Source: Pseudomonadota bacterium
GTDB taxonomy: Bacteria > Pseudomonadota > Gammaproteobacteria > QQUJ01
Reading direction: 5' to 3'
Length of the DNA stretch: 64,000 nucleotides
Assembly: GCA_008501635.1 (NCBI GenBank)
Contig: QQUJ01000025.1
Coordinates: 32,196 to 96,195 of the forward strand
The notes below the pieces were generated by a model. That model was not told where the DNA came from. It did no database searches and saw only the letters and a list, made by a program, of their open reading frames with translations. Shown here piece by piece: positions 37,872-42,988 of the stretch. Made by a program: the position numbers and the translations under genes. Each line of letters opens with the position of its first letter. Positions within the stretch are counted from its first letter, which is position 1.

Positions 37872-39299
37872 ATGAGTCTGCCCAGCCAATTTGCCGACGC
37901 GCTCGCCAGCCTGGTGGGCGTCACCGGCATCATCACCGATACCGAAGCGCTCGCACCCTACGTCAACGAAGAACGCGGTAGATTTCGTGGCCAGGCTGCC
38001 GCGCTTGTGCGCCCGGCGGATACGCATCAGGTCGCCGAGGTCGTCAGGCTCTGTGCCGCTCACGGGATTCCCATCACGCCCCAAGGTGGCAACACCGGTC
38101 TGTGCGGTGGCGGTGTACCCCACGGCGGCATCATCCTCAGCCTCGCGCGCATGAACCGCGTACGCACGATCGATCCGATCAATTACACCGTCACGGTGGA
38201 GGCCGGCGCGATCCTGGCCGAGATTCAACAGGCGGCGGATCGCGAAGGTTGCCTCTTTCCGCTGTCGCTCGGGGCGGAGGGTTCCTGTCAAATCGGCGGC
38301 AATCTGGCGACCAACGCGGGTGGCATCAACGTGCTGCGCTATGGCAATGCCCGCGACCTGGTATTGGGTCTGGAAGTGGTGCTGCCCGACGGTCGTATCT
38401 GGGACGGATTGCGCGCACTGAGCAAAGACAACACCGGCTACGCGCTAAAGCATCTGTTCGTCGGCTCCGAAGGAACGCTGGGGATCATCACCGCGGCGGT
38501 GCTGAAACTCTTCCCCAAGCCGCTCGATGTACAGACGGCACTGTGCGGACTCGACAGCGTGCAGGCCGCCACTCACCTGCTGTCGCTCGCAAGGGCGCGC
38601 TCGGGCGATGCGGTGACAGGCTTTGAGTTGATCTCGAATTTTGCGATGGAGATCACCACCCGGCATGTGCCTGACTGCGTAAACCCGCTGGCGCAAACCC
38701 ATCCCTGGTACGTCCTGATCGAACTCTCCTCCTCACGGCCCGATGCGGGGTTGCGGTCGGTCTTCGAAGGTTTGCTGGAAGAGGCCTATGCCAAGGGGGT
38801 GATTGCAGATGCCGCCGTCGCCGAATCCCTGGAACAGGCACGGCGATTCTGGCGCTTGCGCGAGGCGATTCCCGAGGCACAGAAGCGCGAGGGCAGTTCC
38901 ATCAAGCACGATGTAGCGGTGCCGGTATCCCGGGTGGCGGAGTTTATCGAGCGGGGCATCGCCGCCGTTACGCAAACCTTCCCTGGCGTGCGTCCCTGCC
39001 CTTTTGGCCATCTTGGTGACGGCAACATCCACTTCAACATCACTCAGCCGGTGGGGATGGATAAAAGCACCTATCTGGCGCAGTGGGAGGCGATGAACCG
39101 TGTGGTACACGATCTGGTTGCCGAAATGGATGGCTCGATCTCCGCCGAGCACGGTGTGGGACTGTTGAAGGTCGACGAGATACGCCGCTACAAGAGCCCG
39201 GTTGAACTCGATCTCATGGAGAATCTGAAACGCGCTTTGGACCCCGACAATCTGATGAATCCCGGCAAGGTGGTGCGCTTGTCCGACCTGCGCAAATAG
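37872..39299 (+). CDS. FAD-binding oxidoreductase (D-2-hydroxyacid dehydrogenase family)
   Basis: PQGGNTGLCGG, GGNLATNAGG, FGHLGDGNIH, SISAEHGVG, MNPGKV. Confidence 0.92.
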   Translation: MSLPSQFADALASLVGVTGIITDTEALAPYVNEERGRFRGQAAALVRPADTHQVAEVVRLCAAHGIPITPQGGNTGLCGGGVPHGGIILSLARMNRVRTIDPINYTVTVEAGAILAEIQQAADREGCLFPLSLGAEGSCQIGGNLATNAGGINVLRYGNARDLVLGLEVVLPDGRIWDGLRALSKDNTGYALKHLFVGSEGTLGIITAAVLKLFPKPLDVQTALCGLDSVQAATHLLSLARARSGDAVTGFELISNFAMEITTRHVPDCVNPLAQTHPWYVLIELSSSRPDAGLRSVFEGLLEEAYAKGVIADAAVAESLEQARRFWRLREAIPEAQKREGSSIKHDVAVPVSRVAEFIERGIAAVTQTFPGVRPCPFGHLGDGNIHFNITQPVGMDKSTYLAQWEAMNRVVHDLVAEMDGSISAEHGVGLLKVDEIRRYKSPVELDLMENLKRALDPDNLMNPGKVVRLSDLRK

Positions 39300-39402: not shown

Positions 39403-39418
39403 CTGTACATTTATACAG
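39403..39418. promoter_or_regulatory. LexA (SOS) box upstream of dnaE2
   Basis: CTGT-ACATTTAT-ACAG, perfect CTGT-N8-ACAG 27 bp before the ATG. Confidence 0.9.
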
Positions 39419-39445: not shown

Positions 39446-42400
39446 ATGTCATCGCAGCCCGACTACGCCGAGCTTCATGCGCTCACCAATTTCACCTTTC
39501 TGCGCGGTGCCTCGCATCCCGAGGAGCTGGTGGAACGGGCGGTGGCTGAGGGCTATACCGCCCTGGCGATCACCGACGAATGCACCGTAGCCGGGGTGGT
39601 GCGGGCCCATCTCGCCGCGCGCGGAACACCCTTGAGACTTATCGTCGGCAGCGAATTGCACCTGGCCGATGGGCCGCGTCTGGTGCTGCTGGCGACCAAC
39701 CGCGCCGGCTACGGGGCACTCTGCGCCCTGATCACCCGCGGCCGGCGGGCGACAACGAAAGGCAGCTACCACCTGACCCGCGCCGATGTAGAGGCATTCG
39801 ATCTGGATCGCTGCCTGGCCCTGCTGCTGCCCGCCGAGGAGCCTGCGGTGGAATCCGCCCGCTGGGTGTCCGGGCTGTTTCCCGACCGCGCGTGGCTGGC
39901 GGTGGAGCTGCACCACGGCTGCGACGACGCGGCGCGCCTCGCTCTGTTGCGCGAACTGGGGCGCATGAGCAGTCTGCCCCTGGTGGCAGCGGGCGATGTG
40001 CATATGCACCGCCGCGCCCGCCGCCCGCTGCAGGATGTGCTCACCGCCATACGCCTCAACCGCCCCGTGGCCCAATGCGGCTATGCGCTATTCCCCAACG
40101 CTGAGCGCCACCTGCGCCGCCGTGAGGTGCTGGCGCGGATCTACCCGCCGGAATTGCTGGAAGAGACGCTGCGCATTGCCGCGCGCTGCCAGTTTGTGCT
40201 CGATGAGCTGCGTTACGAATATCCCGACGAATTGGTACCCACAGGCACCACCCCCGCCGTGCATCTGCGCCAGTTGACCGAAGCGGGCCTGCGCCAACGC
40301 TGGCCGCAGGGCGAGTCCGCCAAGGTGCGCCAGCTCATCGAACACGAGCTGGCGCTGATCGGCGAACTGCGCTACGAACCCTACTTTCTCACCGTCCACG
40401 ACATCGTCCGCTTCGCCCGCGCCCGCGGCATCCTCTGCCAGGGGCGCGGTTCGGCGGCCAATTCGGCGGTCTGCTACGCCCTGGGGATCACCGAGGTGGA
40501 CCCCTCGCGCATGGAGATGCTCTTCGAGCGTTTCCTCTCCCGGGAGCGCGACGAACCGCCGGATATCGACGTGGATTTCGAGCACGAACGGCGCGAAGAG
40601 GTGATCCAGTACCTCTACGCCAAATACGGCCGCGAGCGGGCGGCGCTGGCCGCCACCGTCATCACTTATCGGCCCAAGAGCGCGGTGCGCGACGTGGGCA
40701 AGGCGCTGGGGCTGGATGGGGCGCAGATCGAGCGCCTGGCCAAGGCGCTCAAGGGGTGGGTGAGCCGCAAAGAGATCGGCGAGCGCCTCACCGAGGCCGG
40801 GTTCGACCCCGACAACCCGGTGATCGCGCGCCTGCTGTGGCTGGTCAGCGAACTGCTGGGCTTCCCGCGCCATCTCTCCCAGCATGTCGGCGGTTTCGTC
40901 ATCGCCCGGGACTCCTTGCACGAACTGGTGCCCATAGAAAACGCCACCATGCCCGAACGCACGGTGATCCAGTGGGACAAGGATGATCTTGAGGCCCTGG
41001 GCCTGCTCAAGGTCGATGTACTGGGGCTGGGAATGCTGAGCGCCATCCGCAAGGCGCTGGATCTGATCAACGGTTATCGGAGTCGGATGTCCGCTCGTAG
41101 GAGCGACTTCAGTCGCGATGTGCGGCCTGATCCGATCGTGACATTCGCGGTTGAAACCGCTCCTACGAGCACCAGTAACGGGGAAAACCGTGAACGGGAC
41201 TCCGCCCGGACATCAGGGCCGATCAACGGCCATCGGGGTCGAATACCCCCCAGTAGGAGCGACTTCAGTCGCGATGCACACCCCGATCCGACCGCGACGT
41301 TCGCGGTTGAAACTGCTCCTACGGGCACCGGTAGCGGGGAAACCCGCCCGCCGCTCTCCCTGGCCACCATCCCCCCCGAAGACCCGGCCGTCTACGACCT
41401 GATCTGCGCCGGCGACACGGTGGGCGTGTTCCAGATCGAGTCCCGGGCCCAGATGGCCATGCTGCCGCGCCTCAAGCCGCGCACCTTCTACGATCTGGTC
41501 ATCGAAGTGGCCATCGTCCGTCCCGGCCCCATCCAGGGGGACATGGTCCATCCCTACCTGCGCCGCCGTCAGGGTATCGAACCGGTCACCTACCCCAGCG
41601 AGGCGGTACGCGGCGTGCTGGAGCGCACTCTGGGGGTGCCCATCTTCCAGGAACAGGTGATCAAACTGGCGATGGTGGCGGCGGGTTTCTCCGCCGGTGA
41701 GGCCGACGCCCTGCGTCGCGCCATGGCGGCGTGGCGGCGGCGCGGCGGGCTGGAACCCTTCGAGCAGCGACTGATCACCGGCATGCGTCAACGCGGCTAC
41801 TCCGAGACCTTCGCCCGTCAGATCTACCAGCAGATCTGCGGCTTCGGCGAGTACGGCTTCCCCGAAAGCCACGCCGCCAGCTTTGCGCTGCTCGCCTACG
41901 CCTCGGCCTGGCTCAAGCGTCACGAACCCGCCGCCTTCTGTGCGGCCCTGATCAACAGCCTGCCCATGGGTTTCTACGCCCCCGCGCAGCTGGTGCAGGA
42001 CGCTCAGCGCCACGGGGTCGAGGTGCGGACCGTGGATGTGCGTCACAGCAATTGGGATTGCACGCTGGAGCCTCCTGGGGCCCCTATCTCGCGTCAGGAC
42101 ACCAGGGTGCCAGGAACGCGGAAAACGCTGGCATCAGCACCTGTTTTTGCCCCACGAGACGACAACGGGCAGAGCATTCTGACGACCGTTCCCCCTCACC
42201 CCAGCCCTCTCCCCAGGGAGAGGGAGCCCAACTGCATCCCCAGTACCCTCTCCCCCCGGGAGAGGGTCAGGGTGAGGGCCCAACCCACCCTGCGCCTCGG
42301 CCTGCGGCAGGTAAAGGGCCTTTCGCGCGAAGGCGCGGAGCGCCTTGTCGCCGTACGGGCCGAACAACCCTTCGCCGATGTGGCCGATCTGGTCCGCCGC

Positions 42401-42988
42401 GCTCGCCTCGACAAGCGGGACCGCAATGCCCTCGCGGCGGCCGGGGCACTGGCGGGACTGGCCGGTAACCGCCACCAGGCGCGCTGGCAGACGCTGGGCA
42501 TTGAGGCGGCGACACCCCTTGGGGTGGAGAACACCATCGCTGAAGCCACCCCCATGCTGGCACCCCCTAGCGAAGGTGCAGCGATTGCGGCGGACTACCG
42601 CAGCCTGGGACTCACACTGGAGCGCCACCCCTTGGCGCTGTTGCGTGAGCAACTAACCACACAGCATCTCGTCACCGCCGAGGCAATCAATACTTTGCCC
42701 CACGGCCGCCGGGCGCGCATGGCAGGCCTGGTGGTCACCCGGCAACGACCCGGCACCGCCAGCGGCGTGGTCTTCGTCACCCTGGAGGATGAGACCGGTG
42801 TGGTGAATGTGGTGGTGTGGGGGCAGCTGGCCGAGCGCCACCGCCGTGTGCTGCTGGAATCGCAGCTACTGGCAGTGAGCGGTGAGGTGCAGACCGAAGA
42901 TGGCGTCACGCACCTCATCGCCCACCGTTTGGAGAACTACAACCCGCTACTGGGCGGCCTGGAAACCCGATCGCGGGATTTCCACTGA
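39446..42988 (+). CDS. dnaE2: Error-prone DNA polymerase DnaE2 (ImuC) with two large in-frame repeat-derived insertions
   Basis: PHP domain, [36 protein letters not shown] fold, C-terminal SRDFH. Confidence 0.96.
41097..41166. repeat. GTAG-family REP doublet (REPIN) 1 inside dnaE2
   Basis: GTAGGAGCGACTTCAGTCGCGA (41097-41118) inverted to TCGCGGTTGAAACCGCTCCTAC (41145-41166). Confidence 0.88.
41253..41322. repeat. GTAG-family REP doublet (REPIN) 2 inside dnaE2
   Basis: GTAGGAGCGACTTCAGTCGCGA (41253-41274) and TCGCGGTTGAAACTGCTCCTAC (41301-41322), 156 bp after copy 1. Confidence 0.88.
42193..42278. repeat. CCCTCTCCC/GGGAGAGGG palindromic doublet inside dnaE2
   Basis: CCCTCACCCCAGCCCTCTCCC-CA-GGGAGAGGG ... 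CCCTCTCCC-CCC-GGGAGAGGGTCAGGGTGAGGG. Confidence 0.85.

What the first reader, a model, noticed from the sequence alone, without database searches (positions are those of the whole stretch)
42070..42290. A second, unrelated palindromic family is also inserted in frame in dnaE2
Seen: an 86-bp doublet of CCCTCTCCC-N2/3-GGGAGAGGG hairpins with CCCTCACCC/GGGTGAGGG termini, translated [11 protein letters not shown]...[10 protein letters not shown], within a ~71-aa insert just before the HhH motif (LGLRQVKGL). Two independent repeat families in one gene suggest a permissive or targeted locus. Inference: this class is recalled in association with DUF559 endonuclease genes, so the insert may be a remnant of such an element.
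Basis: partly seen in the sequence, partly recalled or inferred. Interest (0 to 1): 0.65.

Follow-up and report, generated by a model that had tools for sequence, protein, structure and literature searches.

The report
BoxC triplex-motif repeats inside dnaE2
Two inverted copies of a known, widespread bacterial DNA repeat (BoxC, also called the "triplex motif") are read through in frame in a floppy surface loop of the SOS-controlled error-prone polymerase DnaE2, a loop that collects such repeats in several bacterial lineages.

Summary
Window 42193-42278 is an 86-bp inverted doublet, CCCTCACCC-CCCTCTCCC-GGGAGAGGG / 21 nt / CCCTCTCCC-GGGAGAGGG-GGGTGAGGG. It is translated in frame inside a 69-71-aa lineage-specific loop of an intact, LexA-boxed dnaE2.

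The repeat is not a new family. It is the BoxC / PIT / "TM" intrastrand-triplex motif (Holder 2015). The genome holds 18-23 units at about 15 loci. All the others are intergenic or at gene ends.

The insert is old. An 84%-identical metagenomic orthologue shares it. There the unique part has drifted to 61% identity, while all 54 motif positions are still consensus here.

The same-genus relative carries a different (GTAG-type) REP in the same loop. Two other genera in the class (3 of 18 repeat-bearing, dnaE2-bearing genomes, counting this one) and at least 12 further metagenomic DnaE2 proteins carry BoxC units there, read in different frames. I read this as a permissive loop with retention, not a functional peptide.

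No DUF559 trace exists in this insert, so "remnant of such an element" is unproven.

Moderate interest: a new member of known kinds.

The parts
39403..39418 (+). Perfect LexA (SOS) box CTGTACATTTATACAG, 28 nt upstream of the dnaE2 start codon
   Evidence: It is the only zero-mismatch CTGT-N8-ACAG site in the 64-kb window. Its function as an operator is inferred from the consensus.
39446..42988 (+). dnaE2 (error-prone DNA polymerase), an intact 1180-aa ORF carrying two in-frame repeat inserts
   Evidence: Searches give the ORF. NCBIfam NF004225 scores 1479 bits. Pfam finds PHP, DNA_pol3_alpha, finger, HHH_6 and OB domains. Orthologues run 1035-1121 aa by open frame.
41081..41347 (+). Site-1 insert: the other finding, a tandem REP-derived segment at residues about 546-634
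   Evidence: It is absent from G001 (the match breaks at residue 545/635) and from P0003. It was not studied further here.
42071..42277 (+). Lineage-specific loop-2 segment, 207 nt / 69 aa, between the conserved anchors CTLE and AQP-T-LRLGL
   Evidence: Protein and DNA alignments with 7 relatives. It is homologous over its whole length to the insert of metagenomic orthologue P0003. AlphaFold gives pLDDT of about 25-57 per 10-residue block, flagged below 50 for residues 880-944, between two short strands (the model is weak overall).
42071..42192 (+). Non-repeat part of the insert, of unknown origin
   Evidence: No similarity elsewhere in the genome or in DUF559 loci. No DUF559 signal. It is 61% nt-identical to P0003, the level of synonymous sites.
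42193..42224 (-). BoxC/TM unit 1 in reverse orientation: CCCTCACCC (42193-42201), CCCTCTCCC (42205-42213), GGGAGAGGG (42216-42224)
   Evidence: It is 26/27 block positions identical in P0003.
42225..42245 (.). 21-nt spacer between the two units
   Evidence: Unique in the genome. It is 14/21 identical in P0003, which shows the doublet was inherited as a whole.
42246..42278 (+). BoxC/TM unit 2 in forward orientation: CCCTCTCCC (42246-42254), GGGAGAGGG (42258-42266), GGGTGAGGG (42270-42278)
   Evidence: It is perfect here but decayed in P0003 (19/27, with a 6-nt deletion).

Best explanation
The 86-bp doublet is a gene-less pair of inverted BoxC / PIT / 'TM' units. Each unit is a 9-bp G/C hairpin plus a mirror-image third block. 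The pair became fixed, in frame, in the tip of a surface beta-hairpin loop at the start of the HhH domain of the LexA-controlled polymerase DnaE2.

Shown:
- The family identity.
- Its dispersed, otherwise intergenic distribution in this genome.
- Inheritance of the whole insert by two lineages about 16% apart in protein sequence.
- Occupation of the same loop by a different REP family in the sister species.
- Occupation of the same loop by BoxC units in other genera.

Inferred mechanism:
- The units are copied around the genome by an unknown route. DUF559 nucleases, whose genes they bracket elsewhere, are the candidate partner.
- Almost all landings inside genes are purged.
- A copy survives where the added peptide is harmless. 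Five of the six reading frames of a unit have no stop codon.
- This loop tolerates a disordered Pro/Gly/Glu/Arg-rich stretch, and the gene is normally repressed, so the cost is small.
- Once inside a needed reading frame the copy is hard to lose, because only precise in-frame deletions are viable. Such copies therefore persist and accumulate (a retention ratchet).
- The encoded peptide itself has no function.
- The motif blocks are kept close to consensus at the DNA level, by gene conversion from other copies or by selection on the DNA/RNA structure.
For: Family identity:
- The unit matches the published TM(ECO)/BoxC consensus CCCTCTCCC-loop-GGGAGAGGG-TTA/CCG-GGGTGAGGG and its habit of inverted pairs.
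- It is present in 36/151 genomes of the class. The reversed-pattern control gives 0 everywhere.

Distribution in this genome:
- 18 units at 15 loci.
- Flanking high-GC3 ORFs place 11 of the 14 other loci clearly between genes. Two touch possible 5' ends and one lies at a contig edge.

The insert is an insert, and it is old:
- Absent from 7 relatives.
- Shared with P0003: left part 61% identical, spacer 14/21.

Permissive loop:
- G001 has a perfect GTCGGGTTA-N8-TAACCCGAC REP at the same site. That family has about 39 copies in G001 and about 33 here.
- G151 and G093 have BoxC units in the same loop.
- P0010, P0016, P0032, P0035, P0037, P0042, P0058, P0062, P0067, P0070, P0081 and P0083 show BoxC peptides there, in different reading frames.
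- Inserts cluster at a few discrete positions of DnaE2.
- AlphaFold predicts disorder between two strands.

Other points:
- A perfect LexA box lies upstream.
- Stop-free frames: only the GGG TGA GGG frame is closed (read directly from the sequence).
- DNA-level maintenance: 54/54 consensus positions here, against 61-67% identity in the non-repeat parts and 48-74% at flanking third codon positions.
Against: - No copying mechanism has been demonstrated for BoxC units. Holder et al. found no mobility genes next to them.
- No target-site duplication can be defined here.
- Enrichment in this loop is far beyond uniform landing in non-coding DNA: 3 of 18 repeat-bearing, dnaE2-bearing genomes, against about 0.03 expected. 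Some real site preference therefore cannot be excluded.
- The perfect conservation of all six blocks is not explained by a purely passive passenger.
- The own/P0003/G001 branching is unresolved. Gain in one ancestor and loss in G001 cannot be told apart.
- The AlphaFold model is poor overall (mean pLDDT 57).
Confidence: 0.78

Rival explanations
1. Remnant of a DUF559 cassette. A nuclease gene bracketed by BoxC units once sat in this loop. Recombination between flanking units then removed it and left a solo doublet.
For: - 19 of 40 stand-alone DUF559 genes have BoxC units within 700 nt. The typical layout is (+) 3-70 nt upstream and (-) 2-26 nt downstream, with extra (-)(+) doublets outside.
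- Density is 0.63 units/kb there, against 0.027/kb in control loci and 0.006/kb genome-wide.
- The genome's only DUF559 relic has a unit 157 nt upstream.
- E. coli ycjD has a BoxC 168 nt downstream.
- In G114 a DUF559 gene with its units is read in frame inside an hsdM-like gene (locus L061).
Against: - No DUF559 signal in any frame of 41900-42450.
- The unique 119 nt and the spacer match nothing.
- No PF04480 in the 120 DnaE2 relatives listed. In the 151-genome survey, none of the DUF559 hits whose contig could be compared lies on the dnaE2 contig.
- The repeat-rich genomes G061, G064, G123 and G134 have no DUF559 at all. Gene-less units therefore spread or persist on their own.
Confidence: 0.15
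2. Targeted insertion. BoxC units, or palindromic repeats in general, are directed to this position of dnaE2 by a sequence or structure preference, or by a mechanistic link with SOS / translesion synthesis.
For: - 3 of 18 repeat-bearing, dnaE2-bearing genomes in the class sample carry a unit in this roughly 60-nt loop. About 0.03 would be expected if the 187 perfect units were spread over non-coding DNA.
- Di Nocera et al. 2013 also thought REP hits in replication and repair genes were unlikely to be fortuitous.
Against: - Units sit at different positions within the loop, with unrelated flanks.
- Unrelated repeat families occupy the same loop.
- The two genomes with the most units (G131 with 90, G134 with 42) have none in dnaE2.
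- Only 2 of 144 dnaE2-bearing genomes in the phylum sample have one.
- Retention bias explains the enrichment without targeting.
Confidence: 0.1
3. Functional cis element. The doublet is kept because its DNA triplex/cruciform or its mRNA hairpin modulates dnaE2 expression or local recombination.
For: - All 54 block positions are consensus while neighbouring insert sequence drifted to 61-67% identity. The (-) unit is 26/27 conserved in both lineages.
- The doublet folds into one long hairpin: RNA -61.2 kcal/mol, z -6.8; DNA -29.3 kcal/mol, z -5.5.
- A three-way compensated subfamily in this genome keeps both the hairpin and the triplex geometry.
Against: - It is absent from the sister species and from most DnaE2 genes.
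- The (+) unit is decaying in P0003.
- Published tests found no promoter, terminator or polymerase-blocking activity for these elements in vivo (citing Maher's work).
- Gene conversion among about 20 genomic copies can keep consensus without any function.
Confidence: 0.1
4. Ordinary loop expansion whose resemblance to a repeat is a coincidence.
For: The single 9-mers occur at chance frequency genome-wide.
Against: Six perfect blocks in the exact BoxC architecture. There are 0 hits in shuffles and 0 hits for the reversed pattern in 151 genomes.
Confidence: 0.01

Closest known systems
BoxC / PIT elements / TM(ECO) intrastrand-triplex motifs (Bergler 1992 and Hoyne & Maher 2000, as cited in Holder et al., NAR 2015, PMC4666352)
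   Same: Same three-block unit: CCCTCTCCC, a short loop, GGGAGAGGG, a 3-nt loop, GGGTGAGGG. Same length of about 33 nt. Same tendency to occur as closely spaced inverted pairs. Same patchy multi-copy distribution across Proteobacteria.
   Different: In E. coli the motif is reported as always intergenic. Here a pair is translated inside a conserved gene. Both units of this pair are the canonical type, whereas E. coli pairs combine type A with type B. The orientation here is (-)(+), seen in only 1 of the 5 E. coli pairs.
REP-decorated proteins, including DnaE2 (Di Nocera, De Gregorio & Rocco, BMC Genomics 2013, PMC3733652)
   Same: A small palindromic repeat read in frame within the error-prone polymerase gene. 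That paper also suggests a location in a flexible loop.
   Different: That paper treats GTAG- and CGTC-tagged REPs, linked to RAYT transposases. BoxC units have no such tag and no RAYT link, and they are not mentioned there.
Rickettsia palindromic elements (RPE) inserted in frame in genes (as cited in PMC3733652)
   Same: Selfish palindromic repeats tolerated inside functional ORFs as extra surface peptide.
   Different: A different sequence family (CGTC-tagged) and a different host clade.
DUF559 (YcjD-type, Vsr-fold) nuclease genes bracketed by BoxC units. No paper linking the two was found in the held library. Noted repeatedly in this scan's own records (e1-051545, e1-703951 and others).
   Same: The same repeat units.
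   Different: No nuclease gene or relic lies in this insert. Only a gene-less doublet is present.

Membership tests
BoxC / PIT / TM intrastrand-triplex motif | Three blocks in order: pyrimidine block CCCTCTCCC, loop of 1-6 nt, purine block GGGAGAGGG, short loop, mirror-repeat third block GGGTGAGGG | tested here: met
   Both units match with 0 mismatches in all six blocks. Loops are 2-3 nt. The consensus is taken from Table 1 of PMC4666352.
BoxC / PIT / TM intrastrand-triplex motif | Dispersed multi-copy family, far above chance | tested here: met
   18 units at 15 loci against 0 in shuffles. Present in 36/151 class genomes, with the reversed control at 0.
BoxC / PIT / TM intrastrand-triplex motif | Intergenic location | tested here: not met
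   This copy lies deep inside dnaE2. The other 14 loci in the genome are intergenic or at gene ends. Location is a described habit of the family, not a sequence criterion.
BoxC / PIT / TM intrastrand-triplex motif | Folds into an intrastrand purine-motif triplex | not testable with these tools
   Indirect support only. A subfamily CCTTCTCCC / GGGAGAAGG / GGATGAGGG (5 units) changes all three blocks in a way that keeps both the hairpin and the antiparallel third-strand pairing.
DUF559-nuclease cassette with BoxC ends | A PF04480 nuclease ORF between inverted units | tested here: not met
   A custom HMM built from 37 of the 40 DUF559 domains gives E > 1 in all six frames of 41900-42450. The only PF04480 hit in the genome is C14:320917-321048.
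DUF559-nuclease cassette with BoxC ends | Units of the same family as those bracketing DUF559 genes | tested here: met
   BLAST of the insert hits the units flanking DUF559 genes in loci L044, L047, L055, L061 and others at 85-94% identity. The layout is shown.
GTAG/CGTC-tagged REP (RAYT-associated) | Short palindrome tagged at one end by GTAG or CGTC | tested here: not met
   The unit ends read ...GTTCC|CCCTCACCC and GGGTGAGGG|CCCAAC, with no tag. By contrast, the REP in G001's loop does end in CCTAC (= GTAGG on the other strand).
MITE | Terminal inverted repeats plus a target-site duplication | tested here: inconclusive
   The doublet is itself a long palindrome (pair I1). No flanking direct repeat is visible, and no empty site from a close enough relative is available to define the ends.
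DnaE2 (error-prone polymerase) | NCBIfam NF004225 above cut-off and the PHP / pol3-alpha / finger / HhH / OB architecture | tested here: met
   1479 bits against a cut-off of 939. Pfam domains.

The most novel reading that the evidence does not exclude
BoxC/TM units are non-autonomous derivatives of a small selfish element whose only gene is a DUF559 (Vsr-fold) nuclease. They are actively kept at consensus in place by nuclease-driven gene conversion. That would explain 54/54 consensus positions inside an insert whose other parts have drifted to about 61% identity. Under this reading the dnaE2 loop is a preferred homing or retention site for such elements, and its repeated colonisation by BoxC and by REPs reflects a real mechanistic bias toward SOS-polymerase genes rather than tolerance alone.
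Probability: 0.15. Interest if true: 0.75.

Novelty: new member of a known kind. Interest (0 to 1): 0.42.

Why it matters
BoxC/TM repeats have been known for 30 years, yet they have no known origin, mobility mechanism or function. In E. coli they are described as strictly intergenic.

This case shows four things:
- They can be fixed inside a conserved gene.
- They can persist there across speciation.
- They can stay at consensus while the surrounding insert drifts.
- The same DnaE2 loop has been colonised independently by BoxC units and by unrelated REP families.

That gives a natural, dated substrate for measuring how these repeats are maintained. It also extends the 2013 observation of REP-decorated repair polymerases to a third repeat class.

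Beyond this gene, the quantitative DUF559-BoxC linkage measured here supports a testable candidate for the repeats' partner enzyme. That linkage is 19/40 genes and about 100-fold enrichment, including E. coli ycjD and this genome's own DUF559 relic.

For the biology of DnaE2 itself, the insert is probably neutral.

Tried and rejected
- Codon-usage log-likelihood scoring of flanks, to call each repeat locus coding or intergenic. It was too noisy: it mis-scored dnaE2's own flank. I replaced it with ORF plus GC3-pattern inspection.
- Rfam search. Only sub-threshold generic hairpin matches appeared (whalefall-1 at 22 bits against a cut-off of 37; miRNA precursors). No RNA family applies.
- DUF559 relic in the insert. 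The custom HMM was negative.
- Origin of the non-repeat 119 nt and of the spacer. BLAST against the genome and all fetched loci found nothing.
- Polarity of the event (gain in the own+P0003 ancestor, or loss in G001). The maximum-likelihood tree left the three as an unresolved trichotomy.
- Population check for excision or presence/absence with sequencing reads.
- AlphaFold with the 8-sequence alignment gave a weak model (mean pLDDT 57). I used it only to show that the insert is low-confidence between two strands.
- imuA/imuB neighbourhood. The upstream gene is a GlcD-like FAD oxidase, not imuB, so no mutasome operon can be claimed here.
- Early alignment attempts failed because genome-search loci are not re-oriented, and one script failed because loci are bundled several to a FASTA file.
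Full report
**What is there.** Window 39446-42988 (+) is an intact 1180-aa ORF.
- It scores 1479 bits on NCBIfam NF004225, "error-prone DNA polymerase"; the cut-off is 939.
- It has the full PHP / pol3-alpha / finger / HHH_6 / OB architecture.
- A perfect LexA box, CTGTACATTTATACAG, lies 28 nt upstream of the start. It is the only perfect CTGT-N8-ACAG site in the window.
- The upstream gene is a GlcD-like oxidase, not imuB.

At 42193-42278 the sequence reads CCCTCACCC-cag-CCCTCTCCC-ca-GGGAGAGGG, then a 21-nt spacer, then CCCTCTCCC-ccc-GGGAGAGGG-tca-GGGTGAGGG. The core hairpin occurs twice in the window and never in 100 shuffles. It is translated [29 protein letters not shown].

**It is an insert.** I aligned the protein with seven orthologues from the same class.
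- The stretch between the conserved strands ...WDCTLE and AQP(A/T)LRLGL..VKGL is 2-5 residues in most of them.
- It is 18 residues in the same-genus relative G001 and 69 residues here (42071-42277).
- Pfam's HHH_6 profile resumes at position 20 right after it.
- An AlphaFold model built on the small alignment is weak overall (mean pLDDT 57). It flags residues 880-944 as low confidence (pLDDT below 50; 10-residue block means about 25-57), between two short strands. This fits a disordered tip on a beta-hairpin.

**What the repeat is.** A full-text search for the two 9-mers led to Holder et al. 2015 (PMC4666352).
- Their Table 1 lists the 23 E. coli K-12 "TMECO" sequences, with consensus CCCTCTCCC-loop-GGGAGAGGG-TTA/CCG-GGGTGAGGG.
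- They equate these with the older BoxC and PIT elements.
- They show a class II intrastrand triplex in vitro.
- They report the motif in more than 260 genomes, frequent inverted pairs and an always intergenic location in E. coli. They found no adjacent mobility genes.

The dnaE2 units match this architecture without a single block mismatch. Rfam has no corresponding family; only sub-threshold generic hairpin hits appear.

**Genome-wide count and location.**
- In the 3.93-Mb assembly the single 9-mers occur about as often as composition predicts, 36-45 times.
- The three-block architecture occurs 18 times at 15 loci and 0 times in five shuffled genomes. A slightly looser pattern finds 23 units.
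- I judged location by the flanking ORFs with the genome's coding signature (GC3 above GC1). Eleven of the other 14 loci are clearly between genes. Two may touch the 5' ends of ORFs (C14:299342, C28:131086). One is at a contig edge.
- The dnaE2 pair is the only copy deep inside a conserved gene.
- Five units belong to a subfamily, CCTTCTCCC / GGGAGAAGG / GGATGAGGG. All three blocks have changed together in the way needed to keep both the hairpin and the antiparallel third-strand pairing.
- In the class survey (one genome per genus), the perfect motif is present in 36 of 151 genomes, with up to 90 copies. The reversed-sequence control is zero in every genome.

**Age and maintenance.** The closest database relative with the insert is P0003, from a JGI metagenome contig (locus L104). 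It is 84% identical in protein sequence.
- P0003 lacks the site-1 REP insert but carries a homologous site-2 insert over its entire length.
- Between the two lineages the non-repeat left part is 61% identical and the spacer is 14/21 identical.
- The (-) unit is 26/27 identical. The (+) unit is decayed in P0003 (19/27, with a 6-nt deletion).
- Third codon positions in the flanking conserved coding sequence are 48-74% identical. The non-repeat insert DNA is therefore drifting roughly neutrally.
- All 54 block positions are still consensus in this genome. This is unlikely under pure neutrality. It points to gene conversion from the roughly 20 other copies, or to selection on the DNA/RNA structure.
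- The doublet can fold into one long interrupted hairpin: RNA -61.2 kcal/mol, z -6.8; DNA -29.3 kcal/mol, z -5.5.
- The tree of own, P0003 and G001 is an unresolved trichotomy. A single gain and a loss in G001 cannot be told apart.

**The loop is a recurrent sink for repeats.**
1. G001's 18-residue loop contains a perfect copy of a different, GTAG-tagged REP: GTCGGGTTAcgctgcgcTAACCCGAC-CTAC. That family has about 39 copies in G001 and about 33 in this genome.
2. Of the 35 other class genomes that carry the BoxC motif, 17 have dnaE2. Two of these carry BoxC in the same loop.
   - G151 has a perfect single unit, read LSPWERAGVRA.
   - G093 has a unit read [15 protein letters not shown], with one mismatch.
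   - Their flanks are unrelated.
   - Counting this genome, that is 3 of 18. I expect about 0.03 if the 187 perfect units of those genomes were spread evenly over non-coding DNA (my estimate counts).
3. Among the 120 best database hits, at least 12 further DnaE2 proteins show BoxC-encoded peptides in this loop. This sample is biased toward similar inserts. The peptides are read in different frames: PLP..GEG..GEG, LSP..ER..VR and PSP..GRG. Others carry unrelated repeat peptides.
4. Inserts of 12 aa or more cluster at a few discrete positions of DnaE2: about residues 130, 289, 547 and 880-941.
5. In a phylum-wide sample, 144 of 401 genomes have dnaE2. Only this genome and G151 carry BoxC in the loop.

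Different families, different positions within the loop and different reading frames argue for structural tolerance plus long retention. They argue against a functional peptide and against a strict target site. Five of the six reading frames of a unit have no stop codon; only GGG TGA GGG closes a frame. Read-through is therefore the expected outcome of an insertion whose length keeps the frame.

**The DUF559 recollection.** PF04480 has one hit in this genome, a 44-residue relic with an internal TGA at C14:320917-321048. A BoxC unit lies 157 nt upstream of it.
- In the class survey, strong stand-alone DUF559 genes occur in 15 of 36 motif-bearing genomes and in 11 of 115 motif-free genomes.
- I fetched 40 such genes with 700-nt flanks. 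Nineteen have at least one unit nearby, and there are 41 units in 65 kb. The typical layout is a (+) unit 3-70 nt before the domain and a (-) unit 2-26 nt after it, sometimes with further (-)(+) doublets outside.
- Control loci from motif-bearing genomes have 3 units in 111 kb, and all three are in the dnaE2 loop. The density in this genome is 0.006 per kb.
- In E. coli K-12, BoxC/TM number 9 lies 168 nt downstream of ycjD, which is annotated as a DUF559 protein.
- In one genome (G114, locus L061), a DUF559 gene with its units is read in frame inside an hsdM-like methylase ORF.
- The association is therefore real. I found no paper in the held library that links DUF559 to BoxC. Other follow-ups of this scan have noted it repeatedly.
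- It does not follow that this insert is a cassette remnant. No DUF559 signal is detectable. The unique parts match nothing. No DnaE2 relative examined has the domain. Four motif-rich genomes have no DUF559 at all.

**Verdict.** The "remnant" inference is not shown.

The element is a new member of two known kinds: BoxC/TM repeats, and repeat-decorated DnaE2 genes (Di Nocera 2013). Three points go beyond what is in print:
- the intragenic location of BoxC units;
- their recurrence in this particular loop;
- their in-place conservation over a measurable divergence.

Noticed in passing
Own genome C1:97625, C3:3229, C6:43628, C12:31188, C14:299393 (outside the window): A subfamily of five units, CCTTCTCCC / GGGAGAAGG / GGATGAGGG, differs from the canonical unit by one change in each of the three blocks. 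The changes are placed so that both the hairpin and the antiparallel third-strand (triplex) pairing are kept. In the two (+)(-) doublets of this genome (C12:31132-31220, C14:299342-299425), a canonical unit is paired with a variant unit. This echoes the type A plus type B pairing in E. coli.
   Followed up: partly
Own genome C14:320917-321237 (locus L027 1713-2033): The genome's only DUF559 (PF04480) hit is a 44-residue relic with an internal TGA. A BoxC unit lies 157 nt upstream, between two intact genes on the minus strand.
   Followed up: yes
L011 (G001:C119:96682-96707): The same-genus relative carries a perfect GTAG-tagged REP (GTCGGGTTAcgctgcgcTAACCCGAC-CTAC, read MSGYAALTRPT) in the same DnaE2 loop. 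This third repeat family has about 33 copies in the window's genome and about 39 in G001.
   Followed up: yes
L061 (G114:C39:39542-41265): A DUF559 gene with three BoxC units is read through in frame inside an hsdM-like N6-adenine methylase ORF (open frame 713 aa). The methylase C-terminus resumes after the cassette.
   Followed up: partly
window 37872-39299 and 39403-39418: dnaE2 here is not preceded by imuA/imuB. The upstream gene is a GlcD-like FAD-linked oxidase. A perfect LexA box lies 28 nt before the dnaE2 start codon. In the P0003 contig dnaE2 likewise has no imuB-like gene upstream (the neighbouring called genes are a histidine kinase and a response regulator on the opposite strand).
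   Followed up: partly
Proteins P0024, P0006, P0005, P0018: Other DnaE2 proteins carry other repeat-derived peptides at the same two sites. P0024 has the same roughly 50-aa element at both site 1 and site 2. P0006 has repeats of STQYAVRAPQHS-type peptides in loop 2 and again further downstream. P0018 has an ASLHPGY-type REP peptide in loop 2 plus a BoxC-type peptide near the N-terminus.
   Followed up: no
Protein P0058 (Sulfurifustis variabilis DnaE2, 1713 aa): This DnaE2 has intein domains (PF14528, PF14890) and also a BoxC-type peptide (ALTPSPLPQAGEGES) in a 127-aa loop 2.
   Followed up: no
Loci L107-L124 (other genomes of the same phylum): Many DnaE2 genes from families outside the window's class share a conserved extension of about 25 aa in loop 2 (AFDPSRILERHASMRGVIETAHA-like). 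It is ordinary conserved sequence, not a repeat.
   Followed up: no
Class survey, genomes G061, G064, G123, G134: These genomes have 28-45 perfect BoxC units each but no detectable DUF559 gene. If DUF559 is the partner enzyme, the units outlive it or use another one.
   Followed up: no
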